From Escherichia phage EC100, in the sequence record NC_105587.1: DNA of 64,000 nucleotides; one strand, given 5' to 3'. Positions 5,852 through 36,085 of this stretch are shown in pieces. Below the pieces are notes generated by a model that saw only the letters and a list, made by a program, of their open reading frames with translations, ran no database searches and was not told the DNA's origin. Numbering within the stretch: position 1 is the stretch's first letter; the number at the start of each line of letters is the position of its first letter. A program made the translations under genes and the position numbers.

Positions 5852-6040
5852 CTAATTGTTTCCTTATGTTATTACTTTAATCTCTATTATATTATATCAA
5901 AATGATTAGCAGACTAGCTAATGAGTTTTTCAGGATTAGTTAGCAGACTCATAATCACGGTAAAATCCTATTAGCCAACTAACTATATTTTACGATATAA
6001 TAACTTTATAAATTAGTTAGTGAGAAAAACTATCATTTAA

Positions 6041-6122
6041 GTTATCCACAGACTTAATCACAGCACAAAATAATTTGACACGATAGGCGGCGATATAAAG
6101 ACTTTTACACAGACTTATCCAC
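6041..6122 (+). promoter_or_regulatory. two DnaA-box-like sites (TTATCCACA)
   Basis: exact 9-mer at 6041-6049 and 6114-6122, both within ...CAGACTTATCCACAG... context. Confidence 0.5.
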
Positions 6123-6417
6123 AGCTTATTCTACTGTATAAATATACAAGGTAAAAAGGTAGTGTTAACAACTGCAATCAATTTTAAGCGGCCTAAAACG
6201 CTTTCTAACGAGCTAAATGCGGTGGGGTAATATTAAAGTAAAGCCTTCACCCGTCGCCCTGGTGGCTTCGCCGTGTTTTGCTCTTTATTGCACCGCTGCG
6301 CGGTTAGCATAAAATTAGGCGCTAGGCAAGGAGTAAAAAACATTTTCTTTTTTCTTGCCCCCAGCGAACAAATATCTATATCATTCACTCACCGATTAAC
6401 GAGGGAGGCCGAACAAA

Positions 6418-30105: not shown

Positions 30106-30470
30106 AATTGAAAACTCGCAGGGTTAGCGAAACCTTCCTCAATTAGCATGTTCTAGAATACTAATCAAGTTATCTCCTATTGCACGCAGCTCAAGACGAG
30201 TACGAATTTTCAATTGTGGCGGCTCTCAGAAACTCTTCTACTCTAGCCTTAGCAGCTTACTCCCGAACGCATGTCGGGGAAGTCTTACTAAGCGCATCAA
30301 ATAGCACCGTTACACTTTGAGCCATTGGTGTATCAAGAAGCAGAAGGACTTGAACCTTCACGAGATAGACCATTTATCTCAGCCGCTTTATGAGGTATGT
30401 TGCAGGGAGTGGATGTTCCCTATAAACCTTTTAGGCAGCCCCGTCTACCGATTCCGGCATACTTCAAGAT

Positions 30471-30577: not shown

Positions 30578-30668
30578 TTGGCGGAAGAGGAGGGATTTGA
30601 ACTCTCAAGCCGTTTTACCAGTCAGCCACTTTCCAAGCGGTTTTCGTCGCCAATTCGATTTGCTCTTC
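30578..30668 (-). tRNA. tRNA-Ser (GGA), class II
   Basis: acceptor GGAAGAG/CTCTTCC, long variable arm, anticodon loop TTGGAAA. Confidence 0.5.
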
Positions 30669-30689
30669 CAATAATAAGATGATGCCTCT

Positions 30690-30765
30690 ATCACACCAGG
30701 CAGTTACGCCTCGCTGGGATTCGAACCCATTAAAACAGCTCAACCGAGATAGTAGGTTTAATTTA
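30690..30765 (-). tRNA. tRNA-like element, identity unresolved
   Basis: canonical T-arm but no pairing acceptor partner found by hand. Confidence 0.3.
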
Positions 30766-30771
30766 CTCTGA

Positions 30772-30848
30772 CCATCAAATTTGGTGCGTGACAAGGGATT
30801 CGAACCCTCAAAACCCGACTTCTAAGGACGGTATGTATGCCAATTCCA
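30772..30848 (-). tRNA. tRNA, anticodon probably TAG (Leu?)
   Basis: acceptor GCGTGAT/GTCACGC and T-arm clear; D-arm atypical. Confidence 0.45.
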
Positions 30849-30853
30849 TCAAT

Positions 30854-30928
30854 CACGCGTATTTGGTGGACAAAGAGGGACTCGAACCCTCCCTACCAGA
30901 TTGCAAGTCTGGTGTGCTCCCGCTGACA
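30854..30928 (-). tRNA. tRNA-Ala (TGC)
   Basis: acceptor with G3-U70, anticodon arm CCAGA-CTTGCAA-TCTGG. Confidence 0.7.
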
Positions 30929-31176
30929 CTATTCGCCCAAATTCTTTAGTTTACTAAGGCTATTAGCTCGGCGTAACTACAGCACCTTCGCTTCGAGCGG
31001 AAGGAACTGCGTCATCTCGCAAACCCAATACACTATTCAGTTGCCACTGAATCTAGTGGACTAATCTAGAACTTCTCCCAAATCGTAGGGATCGTGCTTT
31101 TTGGCAGCCAGTCCTAGGTCGAGCTAATACCTTAGTGAACTATGATGAGGATTTCTCCTCATCAATTTATATAAAT

Positions 31177-31205
31177 ATTATAACAAGAAATTAAGCATCA
31201 AGCAA
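31177..31205 (-). promoter_or_regulatory. strong sigma70 early promoter
   Basis: TTGCTT/17 bp/TATAAT; reads into a tRNA/small-ORF block. Confidence 0.6.
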
Positions 31206-31223
31206 CTGCGTTTTTCTTGAAAT

Positions 31224-31302
31224 TGGTAGATCGCCTGGGACTCGAACCCAGAACCTTCCGATTAAAAGTCGGATGCTACTAAACCTATTGAGCTAGCGAT
31301 CT
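31224..31302 (-). tRNA. tRNA-Lys (TTT)
   Basis: acceptor AGATCGC/GCGATCT, anticodon arm TCCGA-CTTTTAA-TCGGA. Confidence 0.65.
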
Positions 31303-31303
31303 A

Positions 31304-31471
31304 TTAGTAACCATTGTATACTTCTTTAATAGAGTGAACTTTCAAGTAAGGGTGATTAGTATTAAACTCTGACATTACTTCATCCCAATTTTTACCATAA
31401 TGGGCAAGTAAAGATTTTGATGTATTCTTACCTAAACGTTTGTCACTTACTACTAATCGAAATACTTTCAT
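31304..31471 (-). CDS. small hypothetical protein
   Basis: ~55-aa ORF found manually between tRNA-Lys and tRNA-Met. Confidence 0.35.
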   Translation of the reverse strand: MKVFRLVVSDKRLGKNTSKSLLAHYGKNWDEVMSEFNTNHPYLKVHSIKEVYNGY

Positions 31472-31491
31472 TTCGAAATCCTCTATTAAAA

Positions 31492-31569
31492 TGGAAGCGG
31501 GTGCAGGAATCGAACCTACCTCTTTCTAGCTTATGAGACTAGCGATCTCTACCAGAGATCTAACCCGCA
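31492..31569 (-). tRNA. tRNA-Met/fMet/Ile2 (CAT)
   Basis: T-arm and anticodon arm CTAGT-CTCATAA-GCTAG; 5' acceptor register uncertain by 1 nt. Confidence 0.55.
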
Positions 31570-31575
31570 GTTGTT

Positions 31576-31653
31576 TGGTCTCCGTGGGAGGATTTGAACC
31601 CCCGACCCTATCGCCCCAAACGAAACGCTCTGGCCAAACTGAGCTACACGGAG
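31576..31653 (-). tRNA. tRNA-Pro (TGG)
   Basis: acceptor CTCCGTG/CACGGAG, anticodon loop TTTGGGG. Confidence 0.6.
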
Positions 31654-31814
31654 AATATTATTTCTTCAACCACAACAAAGATAAGCCCAGCATACTAAAG
31701 CTGCTAACTAATCCAATACATTTTTCTTCTATAGTAAAAGTATCTAGATTAAATGCTGTTATAGCTATTGGTATACACCATAATGCCATAAAAACTTGAG
31801 CTATCTTGTGTTTC
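31653..31814 (-). CDS. small membrane protein
   Basis: ~53-aa hydrophobic ORF found manually; promoter upstream. Confidence 0.4.
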
Positions 31815-31848
31815 ATTTTGCTTTCCTTCTCTTCACTTTATAAAATAT

Positions 31849-31877
31849 ATTATACAGAGAATTAAGCATAATAGCAA
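31849..31877 (-). promoter_or_regulatory. strong sigma70 early promoter
   Basis: TTGCTA/17 bp/TATAAT. Confidence 0.6.
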
Positions 31878-32269
31878 ATAAATTTTTAATAAATTTACTT
31901 ATTGTGTAGGCCACCTGGAGGCTATGAACCCCACGGCTGACAAAGAAGTTTGCGAGACCTCTCTTAAATGCCAGAATAGACCCGCCGATCTATCGGAACC
32001 TACATAATAAGTAAACTTTATAGTGTCATTCTAGACAGGACTCGAACCTGTTATCACTTGTGCGGACTTACGAGAACCATTCTTTCACTCGAATCGAACG
32101 AGCTTCTGCCCTCGCCAAGCTGGTTTCCCCATCAACCACGCTAGAATGTTTGATTGTTTTCAGTGCAAGAGTCCGAGTCTTGGACACGACCGCTTCGCAA
32201 GTACATAGGCAGCTTATCATGAGTCAGCACTTCCGAATTGCTAGCTCCGTGTTCTGCACTGAAATTTTG

Positions 32270-32617
32270 TTAATTTAATAGTAATGTATGATCTACTTCA
32301 CCATTAATTGTTCGGCATTCCTCTGGAATTGCTGGTGTAGTCTTATATTCCCACCATTCAGAACCATCATATTCACCACGTTCTAACCAAGTTCCATCAG
32401 TAAACCATACGTTACCATAAAGCAATTGTCCACCGAAACCAGAATCATATTTAAAGTCTAGATTATTTAGAAAATCTTCAATATCTTTTTCTGTATAACC
32501 TACGGGTAATACCCAAACTTCTTTGTCCCCATAATAACCGAATTCTATTTTAATACACTTAATTTCAGAATTAATATTCTTTAGGGCAAGTAATAATTCT
32601 TCTTTAGCATTAATCAT
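32270..32617 (-). CDS. hypothetical protein
   Basis: 115-aa ORF. Confidence 0.5.
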   Translation of the reverse strand: MINAKEELLLALKNINSEIKCIKIEFGYYGDKEVWVLPVGYTEKDIEDFLNNLDFKYDSGFGGQLLYGNVWFTDGTWLERGEYDGSEWWEYKTTPAIPEECRTINGEVDHTLLLN

Positions 32618-32643
32618 AGCATATTTCTCGTGCTAGTTTAGTT

Positions 32644-32719
32644 TGGTACACCCACTAGGACTTGAACCTAGAACCCTCCGCTTAAGAGGCGGTAGCTCTA
32701 ACCATTGAGCTATGGATGT
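32644..32719 (-). tRNA. tRNA, anticodon CTT (Lys?)
   Basis: acceptor ACATCCA/TGGGTGT, D-arm GCTC/GAGC, anticodon loop CTCTTAA. Confidence 0.5.
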
Positions 32720-32720
32720 A

Positions 32721-32879
32721 TTAAATTACTTTTTCCAGTTCATCAGCTATGGCTTTGATTTTTTCAAAGTTTACATCACTAATAATGATACCTTCCAGTG
32801 ATAGAGATATTCTAGCATTTTTCGTAGCAGATTCTTTTATCTGCTCTATATCTTCTGGAGTAAACTCTCTACGTTCCAT
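32721..32879 (-). CDS. small acidic protein
   Basis: ~52-aa ORF found manually next to a tRNA. Confidence 0.35.
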   Translation of the reverse strand: MERREFTPEDIEQIKESATKNARISLSLEGIIISDVNFEKIKAIADELEKVI

Positions 32880-32896
32880 AGCTAACCTACCTTATT

Positions 32897-32973
32897 TGGC
32901 GCGACCGATGGGATTTGAACCCACATTCCCTCCCGTGACAGGGGAGTACCATTACCAAGCCAGCCCCGGTCGC
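32897..32973 (-). tRNA. tRNA-Asp (GTC)
   Basis: acceptor GCGACCG/CGGTCGC, anticodon arm CTCCC-CTGTCAC-GGGAG. Confidence 0.65.
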
Positions 32974-32982
32974 ATAATTCAT

Positions 32983-33168
32983 TTACTCAGCTTTGAGTTT
33001 TTCAATAGCTGCATTAAGTTCTTTAAGAAACTCTTTTCGTACATTAAGACGGTTGAGACTTACTAGTATATCATGTTTAAGTTCTTCGATGTATTTCTTC
33101 TCAACTTCAATATTGTTGATAGTGCTATCACGATGAACTTCTAGCTGCGCAATTACATTCTTGGACAT
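32983..33168 (-). CDS. small coiled-coil protein
   Basis: 61-aa ORF. Confidence 0.4.
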   Translation of the reverse strand: MSKNVIAQLEVHRDSTINNIEVEKKYIEELKHDILVSLNRLNVRKEFLKELNAAIEKLKAE

Positions 33169-33270
33169 GCTTGTTTCCTCAGTTATTAATGAAAATGGTA
33201 TCTGTGGCTGGATTCGATGTCAGCAATGATAGCTGGTTGGCTACCGGTTTACTTAACTCTACACAGAATT

Positions 33271-33353
33271 TGGCGGGCCGTGTAGGATTCGAACCTACGT
33301 TGTCTTTCGACATGGATTAACAGTCCACCGCCAAACCGCTTGGCTAACGACCC
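33271..33353 (-). tRNA. tRNA, anticodon GTT (Asn?) with unusually long variable arm
   Basis: acceptor, D-arm, anticodon loop CTGTTAA, 13-nt variable region. Confidence 0.5.
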
Positions 33354-33505
33354 TGAATTTGTATTGCTGACTAGGATTTTCACCTAGACGGAGTTAGCAC
33401 CGTAGCGTGTAGCGGCATACCTCTCCAAACCGTGCCTCATCTTTCAATTACGGAGACAGTGTTCCTACGCGTGCCTGAATTGATTTAACAATTCTTTCAG
33501 CAAAT

Positions 33506-33581
33506 TGGACGACCGCATGAGATTTGAACTCACATAAAAAGGATTTGCAATCCTTCGCCTAAGCCATTCAGCCAACGGTCG
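33506..33581 (-). tRNA. tRNA-Cys (GCA)
   Basis: acceptor, anticodon arm AGGA-TTGCAAA-TCCT. Confidence 0.6.
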
Positions 33582-33629
33582 GTTTATCTTGTTCTGTCAT
33601 GTTGCTTCTCCAGTTCAATTTATGTAATT

Positions 33630-33658
33630 ATTATACAGAACTTTTGGAAACTAAGCAA
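33630..33658 (-). promoter_or_regulatory. strong sigma70 early promoter
   Basis: TTGCTT/17 bp/TATAAT. Confidence 0.6.
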
Positions 33659-33938
33659 CTACATTTTTTAAGAATTTGATGCCTTTCTTTTTCTTCTTAT
33701 ATTTCCACGTTAATGGATTCTGTCGATTATGAACGCTTGAGATCTTTGTCTCGTCAAAGTTCTTCAATACCATGTAATCACAAGATAATTGTTTTAATGG
33801 AATGTGATCACCGTCAAAAGCGTATACATAAGGCTGTTGACTAGCACGATAATGATAGACTTTGTTAATTCTACGTTTCAGCAACTTATCCGCGCAGTAA
33901 ATAAAGAAGTTTTCAGGATGCATCAGCAGCTCCCTCAA
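33651..33938 (-). CDS. hypothetical protein
   Basis: 95 aa; promoter upstream. Confidence 0.5.
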   Translation of the reverse strand: MRELLMHPENFFIYCADKLLKRRINKVYHYRASQQPYVYAFDGDHIPLKQLSCDYMVLKNFDETKISSVHNRQNPLTWKYKKKKKGIKFLKNVVA

Positions 33939-33940
33939 TT

Positions 33941-34015
33941 TGGTGCACCCTGTTCGTATCGAACGAACCTCTCAAGCTCTTCAGGCAAGCGCTAATCCAT
34001 CTCAGCTAAAGGTGC
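33941..34015 (-). tRNA. tRNA-Phe (GAA), tentative
   Basis: acceptor and D-arm fit; anticodon loop CTGAAGA but stem has two U-U mismatches. Confidence 0.45.
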
Positions 34016-34101
34016 AAATTTTGGCAGGGGTAAAGGTATTCGAAACCTTTTCATGGGTTTTGGAGGCCCATTTGCAACCTATGCGTACCCCAATTATTAA
34101 T

Positions 34102-34176
34102 TGGCACACCCAACGAGGATCGAACTCGTGTTCCCACTGTGAAAGAGTGGTGTCCTAACCGCTAGACGATAGGTGC
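34102..34176 (-). tRNA. tRNA-Glu (TTC)
   Basis: acceptor, anticodon arm CCACT-CTTTCAC-AGTGG. Confidence 0.6.
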
Positions 34177-34183
34177 ATTAAAT

Positions 34184-34271
34184 TGGTGGGCGTTAATGGA
34201 GTCGAACCACTCGAGTCGCAATGACCAGGGATTTACAATCCCCTCCGCTACCACTTACGGAATAAACGCCC
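34184..34271 (-). tRNA. tRNA-Tyr (GTA), class II
   Basis: acceptor GGGCGTT/AACGCCC, long variable arm, anticodon loop TTGTAAA. Confidence 0.6.
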
Positions 34272-34399
34272 ATATTTAGAAGTATTCAAATACTAGTTTA
34301 AACACTTTTAAATATGTTTCCAAATTAGATAACTATTATATCAAGTTTTAAGGCACTGAGCAAGTAAGATTTTGAAGAACTTGCTCAGTGCTGTATTAG

Positions 34400-34675
34400 T
34401 TAGTCGAACTTAGGAGTGACAGATAAGGAGAACGGAAGTTCAAAAACTTCTTCACCCTCATTACTAACGGTAACTACACGACCTTTAAGTTCAGACATTG
34501 AAATATCAATATCAGCTTTTGCATCTGGAGACATGCCAGCTTCAACACATTTAGCTTTAACTTCCGGAAGGAGTTCTACATCGTAGAAATAAAGCCATTC
34601 AATCTCACCTTCCCAGCCTTCCCAGGATTTACAGATTGCACTTTCAATACCAGTTGCTATAACACGATTTTGCAT
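34400..34675 (-). CDS. hypothetical protein
   Basis: 91 aa; promoter upstream. Confidence 0.5.
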   Translation of the reverse strand: MQNRVIATGIESAICKSWEGWEGEIEWLYFYDVELLPEVKAKCVEAGMSPDAKADIDISMSELKGRVVTVSNEGEEVFELPFSLSVTPKFD

Positions 34676-34705
34676 TCGTTAACTCCTTCATCAATTTATA
34701 TAACT

Positions 34706-34735
34706 ATTATACCAGAAATTTAAAGCAAAAGGCAA
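34706..34735 (-). promoter_or_regulatory. sigma70 early promoter
   Basis: TTGCCT/18 bp/TATAAT. Confidence 0.5.
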
Positions 34736-34765
34736 GTACATTTTTAAAAATTCTGTTCGGAGGAG

Positions 34766-34972
34766 CTAAACTCCAGATTCTTCTGCCAAGTCTAGACTAA
34801 TAAGAGTTATAGCCATAATTGCTGCACCGTGTTCTTTTTCTCCGGTGTTTTTAGCAGAGTCTATAATAGTCTTAATCTGTTCGTAATAGCCTTTTACTTC
34901 TTGTTCAATACCTGCCTCGGCTATCATGCCTTTAGTCATGATTCGTTGCATAGTAATTTCACGGTTAGCCAT
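34766..34972 (-). CDS. hypothetical protein
   Basis: 68-aa ORF. Confidence 0.45.
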   Translation of the reverse strand: MANREITMQRIMTKGMIAEAGIEQEVKGYYEQIKTIIDSAKNTGEKEHGAAIMAITLISLDLAEESGV

Positions 34973-35132
34973 GTTGTTTCTCCAGCTTCATTTTTAATAG
35001 TTTACAAATGAAATCAACGTCTTCATCTGTACCTAGATCTCTATCTTCAAGGGTTGCCTTGAAATTTTTCGTTAGTTCCATAAGAATAACTTCCCTAGAA
35101 CGACGTGTTGGCGGAGGTGGATGTCTATACAT
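34965..35132 (-). CDS. small proline-rich protein
   Basis: ~55-aa ORF found manually; AAGGA RBS; stop overlaps downstream start. Confidence 0.4.
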   Translation of the reverse strand: MYRHPPPPTRRSREVILMELTKNFKATLEDRDLGTDEDVDFICKLLKMKLEKQHG

Positions 35133-35161
35133 CTTAATTCCTTAACTTGGTAGGGGTTATA

Positions 35162-35845
35162 TCATCTATTTTTCTTAATACTTTTAGGATCTTTCCCTGT
35201 TAGGGACTTATACCTTTTCCTTAATCCAGTATCAGACAATCCTAGTTCTTTGGAGGCACGAATCCAGGAATATTTAGATACCCAGTACTCTATTTGCTCC
35301 ACAGTAATATCTGGATTTATAGTTATCTCTTTAGGAGTACATGATTTACAGTGTGTTGCTCTTGAGCTAATTTCGCAGTGACAAATAGCACACGTATTTA
35401 CAGTCCTTTCTGTATACCTGCCAATATTTTTGCCTGCATGAGTAGGTGTTAGTGCATGGCAATTTGGGCATAGGAAGGCTAAGTTATCCCATTCATTATT
35501 ATAGTGATTTCCATCCTTGTGTTCAAGTTCTAAAGGAATTGGTTTATCTAACCAACTTTCTAAGCCACAACTCTCACATTTATGTGGTTTTAGCCCCTCG
35601 TTAAGAATTTTATTCTTTAGTTTATAGGAAGAAATAGGGCTGCCGTTATATAAATACTCTGTTGCAGACTTATATTTATTATCATACTGCCTATTCGCAG
35701 GAATAACTACTATTCCTAGTTTTCCTAAATATGCTTCCAAAGTGTTCGAGGAGCAGGATAGCATTCTTGCTATCTCTGCTTTAGATTTTCCCTGAGCTAT
35801 CCACTGAGCTATTTCTTCCTTTCTATCTAGTATATCAGTTCTCAT
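35162..35845 (-). CDS. HNH homing endonuclease with N-terminal HTH
   Basis: 227 aa; 'ELEHKDGNHYNNEWDNLAFLCPNCH' plus extra Cys pairs; embedded in tRNA cluster. Confidence 0.7.
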   Translation of the reverse strand: MRTDILDRKEEIAQWIAQGKSKAEIARMLSCSSNTLEAYLGKLGIVVIPANRQYDNKYKSATEYLYNGSPISSYKLKNKILNEGLKPHKCESCGLESWLDKPIPLELEHKDGNHYNNEWDNLAFLCPNCHALTPTHAGKNIGRYTERTVNTCAICHCEISSRATHCKSCTPKEITINPDITVEQIEYWVSKYSWIRASKELGLSDTGLRKRYKSLTGKDPKSIKKNR

Positions 35846-35868
35846 AGTTTATGACTTTATAATTAAGT

Positions 35869-35946
35869 TGGTGGCTCCCCGAGGATTCGAACCTACGTAC
35901 CTTCCGGTTATGAGCCGGGTGCTCATACCATATGAGCTTGAGAACC
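35869..35946 (-). tRNA. tRNA-Met/Ile2 (CAT)
   Basis: acceptor GGTTCTC/GGGAGCC with G-U pairs, anticodon arm CCGG-CTCATAA-CCGG; weak T-stem. Confidence 0.5.
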
Positions 35947-35951
35947 AAAAT

Positions 35952-36041
35952 CTGGCGGAAGAAGTGGGAATCGAACCCACAAGGCTATATTTCAAACCGA
36001 CAGATTAGCAATCTGCTGCAATACCGTTATGCTATTCTTCC
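35952..36041 (-). tRNA. tRNA-Ser (GCT), class II
   Basis: acceptor GGAAGAA/TTCTTCC, long variable arm, anticodon loop TTGCTAA. Confidence 0.6.
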
Positions 36042-36056
36042 GAATTTATAAGATAT

Positions 36057-36085
36057 ATTATATTAGAAATTTAGCTTCATAGCAA
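36057..36085 (-). promoter_or_regulatory. strong sigma70 early promoter
   Basis: TTGCTA/17 bp/TATAAT; reads into tRNA-Ser/tRNA-Met. Confidence 0.6.

What the first reader, a model, noticed from the sequence alone, without database searches (positions are those of the whole stretch)
32018..32137. ~120-nt tRNA-like RNA candidate: 8-bp terminal helix enclosing two T-arm-like hairpins
On the reverse strand, CATTCTAG (from 32137) pairs perfectly with CTAGAATG (to 32018), and the 3' strand is immediately preceded by a canonical T-arm (ACAGG-TTCGAGT-CCTGT), as in a tRNA. The enclosed ~105 nt is far too long for even a class II tRNA and contains a second T-arm-like hairpin (CTCG-TTCGATT-CGAG) and a D-arm-like TGGT...ACCA stem. 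This looks like a tRNA-derived structured RNA, not a standard tRNA.
Basis: seen in the sequence. Interest (0 to 1): 0.55.

Follow-up and report, generated by a model that had tools for sequence, protein, structure and literature searches.

The report
T5 RNA2: tRNA-shaped RNA with insert
This is the local copy of phage T5's already annotated "RNA2", a tRNA-shaped stable RNA whose anticodon loop is replaced by a highly conserved 55-base module of unknown function that also occurs in other phage families.

Summary
The sequence features are real, but the coordinates are 9-11 nt off. The element runs 32148 to 32027 on the minus strand.

The window is the first 64 kb of T5-like phage EC122. The element is 97% identical to T5 misc_RNA rna2 ("tRNA-like stable RNA with unknown functions"), in the same gene order. 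So it is a rediscovery, not a new object.

ARAGORN and Rfam do not call it. Comparison of 27 distinct homologs shows a complete class-I tRNA body:
- a 7-bp acceptor stem;
- a D arm with GG;
- a 5-bp anticodon-type stem;
- a short variable loop;
- a T arm and a discriminator base.

All helices show compensatory changes. A 55-nt insert takes the place of the 7-nt anticodon loop. It holds a second true T-loop hairpin and near-invariant sequence.

The body stems are about 30% identical between lineages. The insert's 3' part is about 80% identical.

The family also occurs in T4-like Acinetobacter phages and in uncultured contigs, always inside tRNA gene clusters.

My best reading is a non-decoding RNA on a natural tRNA scaffold. 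The body would give processing and stability, and the insert would be the working part. Its target is unknown, and a viable T5 deletion mutant lacks it.

The parts
32027..32148 (-). Whole RNA2 homolog, from C(-1) at 32148 to discriminator G at 32027. The T5 annotation's equivalent span is 32024-32148.
   Evidence: 97% identical to T5 rna2/T5s06. CM R1 scores 155 bits over 32024-32148. It is the only hit of 85 bits or more in the window.
32141..32147 (-). Acceptor stem 5' strand, AUUCUAG. C at 32148 can pair with G at 32027 as an eighth pair.
   Evidence: Inverted repeat I1. All 7 pairs show compensatory changes across homologs.
32121..32138 (-). D arm: UGGU / ACCA stem with loop UGAUGGGGAA, which holds the GG.
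   Evidence: 4 of 4 stem pairs show compensatory changes. The GG is conserved.
32116..32120 (-). Anticodon-type stem, 5' strand GCUUG (tRNA positions 26-30).
   Evidence: Pairs with 32060-32056. It is 100% paired in 27 homologs, and 5 of 5 pairs show compensatory changes. The minimum-energy fold of the single sequence mispairs it.
32061..32115 (-). 55-nt insert (payload) in place of the 7-nt anticodon loop.
   Evidence: Exactly 55 nt in 11 of 17 lineages. Its 3' segment is 0.80 identical between lineages, against 0.29-0.35 for the body stems.
32087..32103 (-). Second T arm (T') inside the insert: G-CUCG UUCGAUU CGAG-U.
   Evidence: The stem covaries (CUCG/CGAG, ACGG/CCGU, CUGG/CCAG, AUGG/CCAU, UUGG/CCAA, CCCG/CGGG). 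The loop UUCGAUU fits the T-loop consensus and is invariant except for one UUCAAUU.
32061..32086 (-). Near-invariant 3' segment of the insert: GAAAGAAUGGUUCUCGUAAGUCCGCA.
   Evidence: Mean pairwise identity 0.80 over 17 lineages. Part of it (AAGAAUGGUUC) was the search pattern for the metagenome members, so that stretch is biased upward.
32056..32060 (-). Anticodon-type stem, 3' strand CAAGU (tRNA positions 40-44).
   Evidence: helix 3.
32052..32055 (-). Short variable loop, GAUA.
   Evidence: Read from the alignment. This is a class-I tRNA layout.
32035..32051 (-). T arm: ACAGG UUCGAGU CCUGU.
   Evidence: 3 of 5 pairs show compensatory changes and 2 are invariant G-C.
32028..32034 (-). Acceptor stem 3' strand CUAGAAU. 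Discriminator G at 32027 is followed by ACA, not CCA.
   Evidence: Some homologs encode CCA right after the discriminator (SIY1lw G-CCA, Klebsiella K7_rec10 U-CCA, L055 G-CCA).

Best explanation
The element is the phage EC122 ortholog of bacteriophage T5 rna2, a stable non-coding RNA built on a complete tRNA body.

Shown here: it has a 7-bp acceptor stem, a D arm, a 5-bp anticodon-type stem, a short variable loop, a T arm and a discriminator base. The anticodon loop is replaced by a 55-nt insert. The insert carries its own T-loop hairpin and is the most sequence-conserved part of the molecule. With no anticodon loop, it cannot decode.

Inferred mechanism:
- The RNA is transcribed as part of the polycistronic tRNA-cluster transcript, since no promoter or terminator consensus lies next to it.
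- The tRNA body recruits the host tRNA maturation machinery. RNase P would cut between C32148 and A32147. 3' trimming and CCA addition would follow after G32027.
- The body also protects the RNA from decay, as in engineered "tRNA scaffold" constructs.
- The insert is the working module, displayed at the end of the anticodon arm.

The insert combines a T-loop with invariant G-rich strands (GAGGG, AAUGG). My most likely guess is that it folds into a tRNA-elbow-like knob that binds a host or phage factor which recognises tRNAs. The target and the benefit to the phage are unknown.
For: Identity: the window equals the first 64 kb of phage EC122. The element is 97% identical to T5 rna2, "tRNA-like stable RNA with unknown functions". 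The gene order matches: tRNA-Pro, small ORF, promoter, RNAIV, RNA2, ORF T5.067.

tRNA body: covariation in 27 distinct homologs supports every helix. Pairs with compensatory change are acceptor 7/7, D 4/4, anticodon-type stem 5/5 (100% paired) and T 3/5. RNAalifold recovers the same helices independently. Ordinary tRNAs align to the model over its full length.

The insert is the constrained part: identity between 17 lineages is 0.29-0.35 for the body stems, 0.80 for the insert's 3' segment and 0.79 for the T' loop. The insert is exactly 55 nt in 11 of 17 lineages.

Breadth:
- Homologs occur in 477 phage records, mostly Demerecviridae.
- They also occur in T4-like Acinetobacter phages.
- Uncultured contigs carry the same insert on quite different acceptor and anticodon-type stems.
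- All lie in tRNA clusters.

Processing context: there is no promoter or terminator consensus between the upstream ORF and RNAIV. Some homologs encode discriminator plus CCA.

Scaffold principle: recombinant RNAs placed in a tRNA's anticodon stem are processed and stabilised in E. coli (PMC3753655).

A second T5 RNA, RNA1 (window 30324-30468), is also a tRNA body with a different insert at the same place.
Against: - No expression or end-mapping data were examined here. "Stable RNA" rests on the T5 record's annotation, and I could not read its primary source.
- Single-sequence folding is not better than shuffles.
- CCA is not encoded in this phage (G-ACA), so maturation needs trimming plus CCA addition.
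- In the T4-like subfamily the D stem is missing and the acceptor stem is weak. In L012 it overlaps the next tRNA. The full tRNA body is therefore not required everywhere.
- The fold of the insert outside the T' hairpin is unresolved, with three competing pairings.
- T5Mos lacks 30661-38625 and still grows on permissive cells (PMC11464382). If those coordinates follow the T5 reference, the deletion includes rna2, so any function is conditional.
- Conservation of part of the insert in the metagenome members is inflated, because they were found with a pattern taken from it.
Confidence: 0.75

Rival explanations
1. It is a decayed tRNA gene: a pseudogene that picked up an insertion in its anticodon loop and no longer has any function. 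It would be carried along in the tRNA cluster and perhaps still be processed.
For: - tRNA finders do not call it.
- It has no anticodon loop.
- The T5 tRNA region is rich in homing endonuclease genes that overlap tRNA genes.
- The region is dispensable in T5Mos.
- Several homologs have mismatches in the acceptor stem, for example U:U at pair 2:71 in Epseptimaviruses.
Against: - The body stems have diverged to about 30% identity yet stay 92-100% paired through compensatory changes.
- The insert keeps its length and about 80% identity across different phage families.
- Both patterns indicate purifying selection on structure and on insert sequence, which a dead gene would not show.
Confidence: 0.06
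2. It is an intron-containing tRNA gene. The 55-nt insert is removed after transcription and a normal decoding tRNA results.
For: The insert sits exactly where tRNA introns sit, in the anticodon loop region. The rest of the molecule is a good class-I tRNA.
Against: - No residues of an anticodon loop flank the insert. Position 33 would be G, C or U depending on the homolog, not the near-universal U33 (insert sequences).
- 55 nt is far too short for a self-splicing group I intron, and Rfam finds no intron family.
- From established knowledge, E. coli has no protein tRNA-splicing endonuclease.
- The insert is more conserved than the supposed exons, the opposite of what is expected for an intron.
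Confidence: 0.03
3. It is mainly a processing signal (tRNA-like punctuation). Its job would be to bring RNase P and 3' exonucleases to this point of the long transcript. That would free the upstream mRNA (ORF 32270-32617) and the neighbouring stable RNAs, and the released RNA itself would have no role.
For: - It lies between an ORF, an unannotated structured segment (32149-32268) and RNAIV (31903-32005), with no promoter or terminator consensus between them.
- A tRNA body is sufficient for RNase P recognition (established knowledge).
Against: - Punctuation needs only the acceptor and T domain. It does not explain a length-fixed, sequence-conserved 55-nt insert with its own T-loop.
- The T4-like members keep the insert while losing much of the acceptor and D part.
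- In Epseptimaviruses the element is flanked directly by ordinary tRNAs, which already provide processing sites.
Confidence: 0.08
4. It is aminoacylated and works as an amino acid donor or a tmRNA-like molecule, using only acceptor-stem identity.
For: - It has a complete acceptor and T domain with a discriminator base.
- CCA is encoded in a few homologs.
- The Serratia phage Kamaji homolog has a G3:U70 pair, which is the alanine identity element.
Against: - Acceptor stem sequence and discriminator base (G, A, U) differ freely among homologs. No shared synthetase identity set is conserved.
- ARAGORN finds no tmRNA and there is no tag reading frame.
- The T4-like members lack a convincing acceptor stem.
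Confidence: 0.05

Closest known systems
Bacteriophage T5 rna2 (locus tag T5s06, NC_005859 32959-33083), annotated 'tRNA-like stable RNA with unknown functions'
   Same: It is 97% identical over the full 125 nt, on the same strand and in the same gene neighbourhood. This is the same gene in a sister phage.
   Different: There are four substitutions inside the RNA, two of them in stems. The two stem substitutions keep pairing (A-U to G:U, U-A to U:G). The T5 record gives no structure or function. The tRNA-body-plus-insert model and the wider family come from this analysis.
Canonical bacterial and phage tRNA (Rfam RF00005)
   Same: It has a 7-bp acceptor stem, a D arm with GG, a 5-bp anticodon-type stem, a short variable loop, a T arm with a UUCGAGU loop and a discriminator base. 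It sits in a tRNA gene cluster. Ordinary tRNAs align end to end to its model.
   Different: It has no 7-nt anticodon loop or anticodon, only a 55-nt insert. Position 8 is C, not U. CCA is not encoded here. It is not called by ARAGORN or by the Rfam tRNA model.
Engineered 'tRNA scaffold' RNAs (Ponchon and Dardel; PMC3753655)
   Same: The architecture is the same: acceptor, T and D arms are kept, and the anticodon stem-loop is turned into an insertion site carrying a foreign structured RNA. In E. coli this gives correct processing and nuclease protection.
   Different: Those are laboratory constructs. This one is natural and evolutionarily conserved, and its payload has an unknown function.
Bacteriophage T4 stable RNAs rnaC (species 1) and rnaD (species 2)
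   Same: These are phage-encoded stable RNAs of 119-139 nt at the end of a tRNA cluster. rnaC ends in a T arm, and their function is still unknown.
   Different: No detectable homology. The family model gives rnaC only 16 bits, through its T arm alone, which is below ordinary tRNAs. The insert does not align. A short local resemblance at the 5' end of rnaC, seen by eye, was not confirmed.
T5 RNA1 (T5s03; window homolog 30324-30468)
   Same: It is also a tRNA body with an insert of about 48 nt in place of the anticodon loop. T5 and this phage show compensatory changes in its stems.
   Different: Its body is class II (long variable arm) and its insert sequence is unrelated. It is not hit by the RNA2 family model.
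tmRNA and bacterial Y-RNA-like YrlA (other tRNA mimics)
   Same: They contain a tRNA-like domain with a T arm.
   Different: tmRNA has a tag reading frame and pseudoknots and lacks a D stem, and ARAGORN finds none here. From my own knowledge, in YrlA the RNA ends form the Ro-binding stem and the acceptor-like stem is capped. Here the ends form the acceptor stem. No Rfam family matches even at E up to 10.

Membership tests
T5 rna2 orthologs | High full-length sequence identity to T5 rna2 | tested here: met
   96.8-98% identity over 125 nt.
T5 rna2 orthologs | Same genomic neighbourhood (tRNA-Pro, small ORF, promoter, RNAIV, RNA2, T5.067 homolog, tRNA-Asp) | tested here: met
   EC122 has one extra tRNA-Lys(ctt) upstream.
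T5 rna2 orthologs | Accumulates as a discrete stable RNA in infected cells | not testable with these tools
   Only the T5 record's annotation says so. The primary paper is not held.
Canonical tRNA | Cloverleaf helices: 7-bp acceptor, D stem, 5-bp anticodon stem, 5-bp T stem | tested here: met
   All four helices are present and covary.
Canonical tRNA | 7-nt anticodon loop with U33 and an anticodon | tested here: not met
   A 55-nt insert lies between the strands of the anticodon-type stem, and no loop remnant is conserved.
Canonical tRNA | Recognised by tRNA gene finders or the Rfam tRNA model at the curated threshold | tested here: not met
   ARAGORN lists 20 tRNAs and Rfam 21, none at 32027-32148. 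No tRNA match there even at E up to 10.
Canonical tRNA | T loop and D loop tertiary-pair residues (G53, U54, U55, C56, R57, A58, C61; G18, G19) | tested here: met
   The T loop is UUCGAGU closed by G-C, and the D loop holds GGGG.
Canonical tRNA | Aminoacylation and ribosomal decoding | not testable with these tools
   Decoding is excluded by the missing anticodon. Charging is untested.
Intron-containing tRNA (group I intron in the anticodon loop) | Intron with a group I core (about 200 nt or more) and flanking anticodon-loop residues | tested here: not met
   The insert is 55 nt. There is no Rfam intron match and no conserved U33 or purine 37 context.
tmRNA | tRNA-like domain plus tag-peptide reading frame and pseudoknots | tested here: not met
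   ARAGORN reports no tmRNA and Rfam has no match.
T4 rnaC / rnaD | Sequence or structure homology to T4 species 1 or 2 RNA | tested here: not met
   The family model scores rnaC at 16.3 bits through the T arm only and gives rnaD nothing. R2 finds only tRNAs in the T4 region.
Natural tRNA-scaffold RNA (functional analogy, not a curated family) | Intact acceptor, D and T domain with a foreign structured module replacing the anticodon loop | tested here: met
   The T4-like subfamily keeps the module but has a reduced body.
Natural tRNA-scaffold RNA (functional analogy, not a curated family) | The body confers RNase P and 3' end processing and stability | not testable with these tools
   Inferred from the engineered systems (PMC3753655).

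The most novel reading that the evidence does not exclude
RNA2 defines an undescribed ncRNA class that crosses phage families. It is a natural tRNA scaffold displaying a fixed 55-nt module that carries a T-loop. The class is found in Demerecviridae, in T4-like Acinetobacter phages and in uncultured tRNA arrays. The module would mimic a tRNA elbow and soak up or block a host factor that recognises tRNAs, for example a tRNA-directed defence nuclease or a tRNA processing or modification enzyme. That would add an RNA decoy to the known role of the T5 tRNA cluster in countering tRNA-targeting immunity.
Probability: 0.2. Interest if true: 0.75.

Novelty: already known. Interest (0 to 1): 0.4.

Why it matters
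The object itself is not new. T5's reference annotation has listed it as a tRNA-like stable RNA of unknown function for about two decades.

What this analysis adds:
- An explicit structure backed by covariation: a full tRNA body, with the anticodon loop swapped for a 55-nt module.
- Evidence that the module, not the body, is the conserved part.
- Evidence that the same module occurs outside T5-like phages, always in tRNA clusters. It has no Rfam family.

This turns an orphan annotation into a testable hypothesis. T5's tRNA cluster is now known to counter tRNA-cleaving defence systems such as PARIS (PMC11464382). A conserved tRNA mimic that cannot decode, sitting in that cluster, is a reasonable candidate for a related role. 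If it proves to be only a stable by-product, it is still a natural precedent for the tRNA-scaffold trick used in RNA engineering.

Tried and rejected

2. The minimum-energy fold pairs GCUUG with UAAGU and forms a 7-bp inner stem CGAGGGC/GUUCUCG. I rejected it as the conserved structure. The true partner of GCUUG is CAAGU, which is 100% paired and covaries. The inner stem has essentially no compensatory change, and one of its pairs is broken in 14 of 27 homologs.

3. Homology to T4 rnaC was suggested by a local resemblance seen by eye. The family models do not support it.

4. The viral-contig pattern GGTTCGATTCC...AATGG...CGTAA returned mostly tRNA-tRNA junctions, which are false positives.

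5. The insert has no match in 5,426 complete E. coli genomes. There is therefore no host or prophage copy. The search is too insensitive to test for short antisense targets.

6. An alternative pairing of the 5' acceptor strand with the insert's AGAAUGG (I2) is not possible in homologs with other acceptor sequences. I treated it as coincidental.

7. Protein-coding was rejected. Overlapping ORFs of 50 and 72 aa exist, and some records annotate a hypothetical protein there. However, homologs differ by 1-, 3- and 6-nt indels and show RNA-type compensatory changes.

8. Neighbouring ORFs gave no functional clue. Pfam found nothing and the informative PHROG matches were to families of unknown function.

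9. Literature searches in the held library found no paper describing this RNA's structure or function.

Full report
OBSERVATION. On the minus strand the arms CATTCTAG and CTAGAATG lie at 32148-32141 and 32034-32027, not at 32137 and 32018 as written. All other described features are present:
- T arm ACAGG-UUCGAGU-CCUGU at 32051-32035, directly before the 3' arm.
- A second T-arm-like hairpin, CUCG-UUCGAUU-CGAG, within 32103-32087.
- A UGGU/ACCA stem at 32138-32121.

The arm pair at this spacing never arose in 100 shuffles. The fold energy of the single sequence is unremarkable (z = -1.30). ARAGORN finds 20 tRNAs around it and Rfam finds 21, but neither calls this element. No Rfam family matches it even at E up to 10.

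WHAT IT IS. The window is identical to the first 64 kb of Escherichia phage EC122, a T5-like phage. The reference T5 record annotates misc_RNA rna2 (T5s06, 32959-33083, minus strand) as "RNA2, tRNA-like stable RNA with unknown functions". The window element is 97% identical to it over its whole length, and the two stem substitutions keep pairing.

The neighbourhood is the same: tRNA-Pro, a 52-aa ORF, a sigma-70-like promoter (31877-31849), the RNAIV homolog (31903-32005), RNA2, a 120-nt structured but unannotated segment (32149-32268), and a 115-aa ORF homologous to T5.067. All eight T5 "stable RNA" features have homologs in the window. The finding is therefore a rediscovery of a catalogued RNA of unknown function.

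STRUCTURE. blastn finds homologs in 477 phage records at 75-100% identity. I collected divergent ones:
- Epseptimaviruses, Yersinia phiR2-01, Salmonella SIY1lw, Serratia Kamaji and Klebsiella Sugarlandvirus.
- T4-like Acinetobacter phages Acj9 and AB1I1M-1.
- Further members from IMG/VR, GTDB genomes and metagenomes, found by pattern scans.

A covariance model (R1) and its successor (R2) separate family members (85 bits or more with R2) cleanly from ordinary tRNAs (41 bits or less). There is one copy in the window and one in the T5 region searched. Ordinary tRNAs align to the model from the first to the last position with the insert skipped, which is a direct sign of a tRNA body.

On 27 distinct sequences the numbers of pairs with compensatory change are as follows:

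| Helix | Pairs with changes on both sides | Cells paired |
|---|---|---|
| Acceptor stem | 7 of 7 | 91.7% |
| D stem | 4 of 4 | 93.9% |
| Anticodon-type stem | 5 of 5 | 100% |
| T stem | 3 of 5 (other two invariant G-C) | 97.7% |

RNAalifold finds the same helices on its own.

The key correction to the minimum-energy fold concerns GCUUG (32120-32116). It pairs with CAAGU (32060-32056), not with UAAGU. The partner pairs in homologs are:
- GCCUC/GAGGU in Kamaji;
- GUCUG/CAGAU in phiR2-01;
- GCCUG/CAGGU in the Klebsiella phages;
- ACUCCG/CGGAGU and GUCCCU/AGGGAU in the Acinetobacter phages.

In tRNA numbering the molecule reads: acceptor 1-7, two linker bases, D arm, 26:44 plus 27-30:40-43, a short variable loop, T arm 49-65, acceptor 66-72, and discriminator G73. 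A 55-nt insert sits where residues 31-39 should be.

THE INSERT. It contains a hairpin whose stem covaries (CUCG/CGAG, ACGG/CCGU, CUGG/CCAG, AUGG/CCAU, UUGG/CCAA, CCCG/CGGG). Its loop, UUCGAUU, closed by G-C, fits the T-loop consensus and is invariant but for one UUCAAUU.

Among 17 lineages that are less than 90% identical to each other, mean pairwise identity by region is as follows:

| Region | Mean pairwise identity |
|---|---|
| Acceptor stem | 0.29 |
| D stem | 0.30 |
| Anticodon-type stem | 0.35 |
| T' loop | 0.79 |
| Insert 3' segment (GAAAGAAUGGUUCNCGUAANUCCRYA) | 0.80 |

The insert is exactly 55 nt in 11 of 17 lineages. One caveat applies. The metagenome and genome members were found with a pattern taken from the insert (TTCGATTC-N6-AAGAATGGTTC), so those 19 positions are conserved by construction in that subset. 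The blastn-derived members and the remaining insert positions are not affected.

The rest of the insert's fold is unresolved:
- The minimum-energy 7-bp stem has no real covariation and is broken in many homologs.
- RNAalifold keeps only a 3-bp UGG/CCG hairpin.
- A scan of all column pairs pointed to 53:91 (A-U, U-A, C-G), 52:92, 47:102 (G-C, A-U) and 50:97 (C-G, U-A, six exceptions). These were chosen after looking at the data and need independent testing.

DISTRIBUTION AND CONTEXT. Every member lies inside a tRNA gene cluster, usually a few bases after the CCA of a preceding tRNA. One sits among 47 tRNA genes in 8.3 kb of a 1.46-Mb metagenomic contig.

The T4-like Acinetobacter subfamily keeps the anticodon-type stem, the insert and the T arm. 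It has no D stem and only a weak acceptor stem, and in L012 the 3' end overlaps the next tRNA.

T4 itself has no member. Its rnaC scores 16 bits through its T arm only. The insert has no match in complete E. coli genomes. The neighbouring ORFs have no known function.

MECHANISM. Shown here: this is a non-decoding RNA with a selected tRNA body and a more strongly selected insert.

Inferred: it is cut out of the polycistronic cluster transcript by the tRNA maturation enzymes (RNase P at 32148/32147, then 3' trimming and CCA addition after 32027) and is stabilised by its tRNA shape. This is exactly how engineered tRNA-scaffold RNAs behave in E. coli (PMC3753655). The insert would be the functional module.

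A second T5 RNA, RNA1 (window 30324-30468), has the same design with a class-II body and an unrelated insert. Compensatory changes between T5 and EC122 support it. tRNA bodies carrying payloads therefore look like a recurring device in these phages.

What the payload binds is not known. Its T-loop and invariant G-rich strands suggest a tRNA-elbow-like knob that could engage a tRNA-recognising factor. This is speculation.

The T5Mos variant lacks 30661-38625 and still plates on permissive cells (PMC11464382). If those coordinates follow the T5 reference, the deletion includes rna2, so any function is conditional.

RIVALS.
- A dead tRNA gene is contradicted by maintained pairing and insert conservation.
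- An intron-containing tRNA is contradicted by the absence of anticodon-loop remnants, by the insert's small size and by its higher conservation.
- Pure processing punctuation does not explain the insert.
- Aminoacylation-based roles lack any conserved identity set.
- Protein coding is contradicted by frame-breaking indels and RNA-type covariation.

VERDICT. The element is already annotated in T5, so it is not novel as an object. The explicit structure, the "payload on a tRNA scaffold" reading and the cross-family distribution appear not to be described in the literature I could search or in Rfam. They make the RNA's function experimentally approachable.

Noticed in passing
window 31903-32005 (minus strand): This is the homolog of T5 RNAIV ("stable RNA with unknown functions"), 96% identical. 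It folds into a long terminal helix closing a three-way junction, far better than shuffles (z = -4.31, 0 of 200). It lies 18 nt downstream of RNA2.
   Followed up: partly
window 32149-32268 (minus strand): This segment lies between the T5.067-like ORF and RNA2. It is 99% identical to T5 33084-33204, which carries no annotation. Its ends form a 10-11 bp helix (UUCAGUGCAAGAG...). The fold z-score is only -1.72. It may be another processed RNA.
   Followed up: partly
window 30324-30468 (minus strand): This is the homolog of T5 RNA1 (85% identical). It is also a tRNA body (acceptor, D, long variable arm, T arm) with an unrelated insert of about 48 nt in place of the anticodon loop. Between T5 and EC122 there are 5 pairs with compensatory change.
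   Followed up: partly
window 35872-35946 and 40158-40229 (minus strand): Rfam's tRNA model finds two genes here (40.3 and 35.5 bits) that ARAGORN does not list. By position next to tRNA-Ser(gct), the first looks like the counterpart of T5 tRNA-Ile2(CAU), though I did not test this. The second lies inside the RNAX homolog (39657-40292).
   Followed up: no
window 32075-32083 with 32143-32151: The 5' acceptor strand (AAACAUUCU) can also pair with the insert's invariant AGAAUGGUU (9 nt, 89%). Homologs with other acceptor sequences cannot do this, so it is probably coincidental.
   Followed up: yes
L007 306-429 (Serratia phage Kamaji): This homolog's acceptor stem, GGGUACU/GGUAUCC, contains a G3:U70 pair with discriminator A. 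That is the alanine identity element. No other member shares it.
   Followed up: no
L054 1-8283 (metagenome contig Ga0308158_10000004, 1.46 Mb): There are 47 tRNA genes in 8.3 kb, with a family member at 6022-6141 among them. The contig is larger than any phage genome I know of (my own knowledge). The RNA may therefore also occur in a cellular tRNA array or in an integrated element.
   Followed up: no
L053 7053-7127; L026 6751-6823; L055 4834-4910; L003 220-292: Several genomes that carry the family also carry a tRNA with anticodon CUA, which reads amber and is labelled Pyl by ARAGORN or the record. In L053 it lies directly upstream of the family member.
   Followed up: no
L003 1575-1670 (Acinetobacter phage Acj9): Directly after the family member lies another stretch whose ends pair (GGAAAG...CUUUCC) and which is followed by GCCA. 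It falls under an annotated "hypothetical protein" and may be a second processed RNA.
   Followed up: no
public records under the match: Many phage records annotate a "hypothetical protein" CDS across this RNA, for example phiR2-01 g056, Acj9p148 and several Salmonella phages. Most others leave it blank. Among the records I inspected, only the T5 reference record marks it as an RNA.
   Followed up: yes
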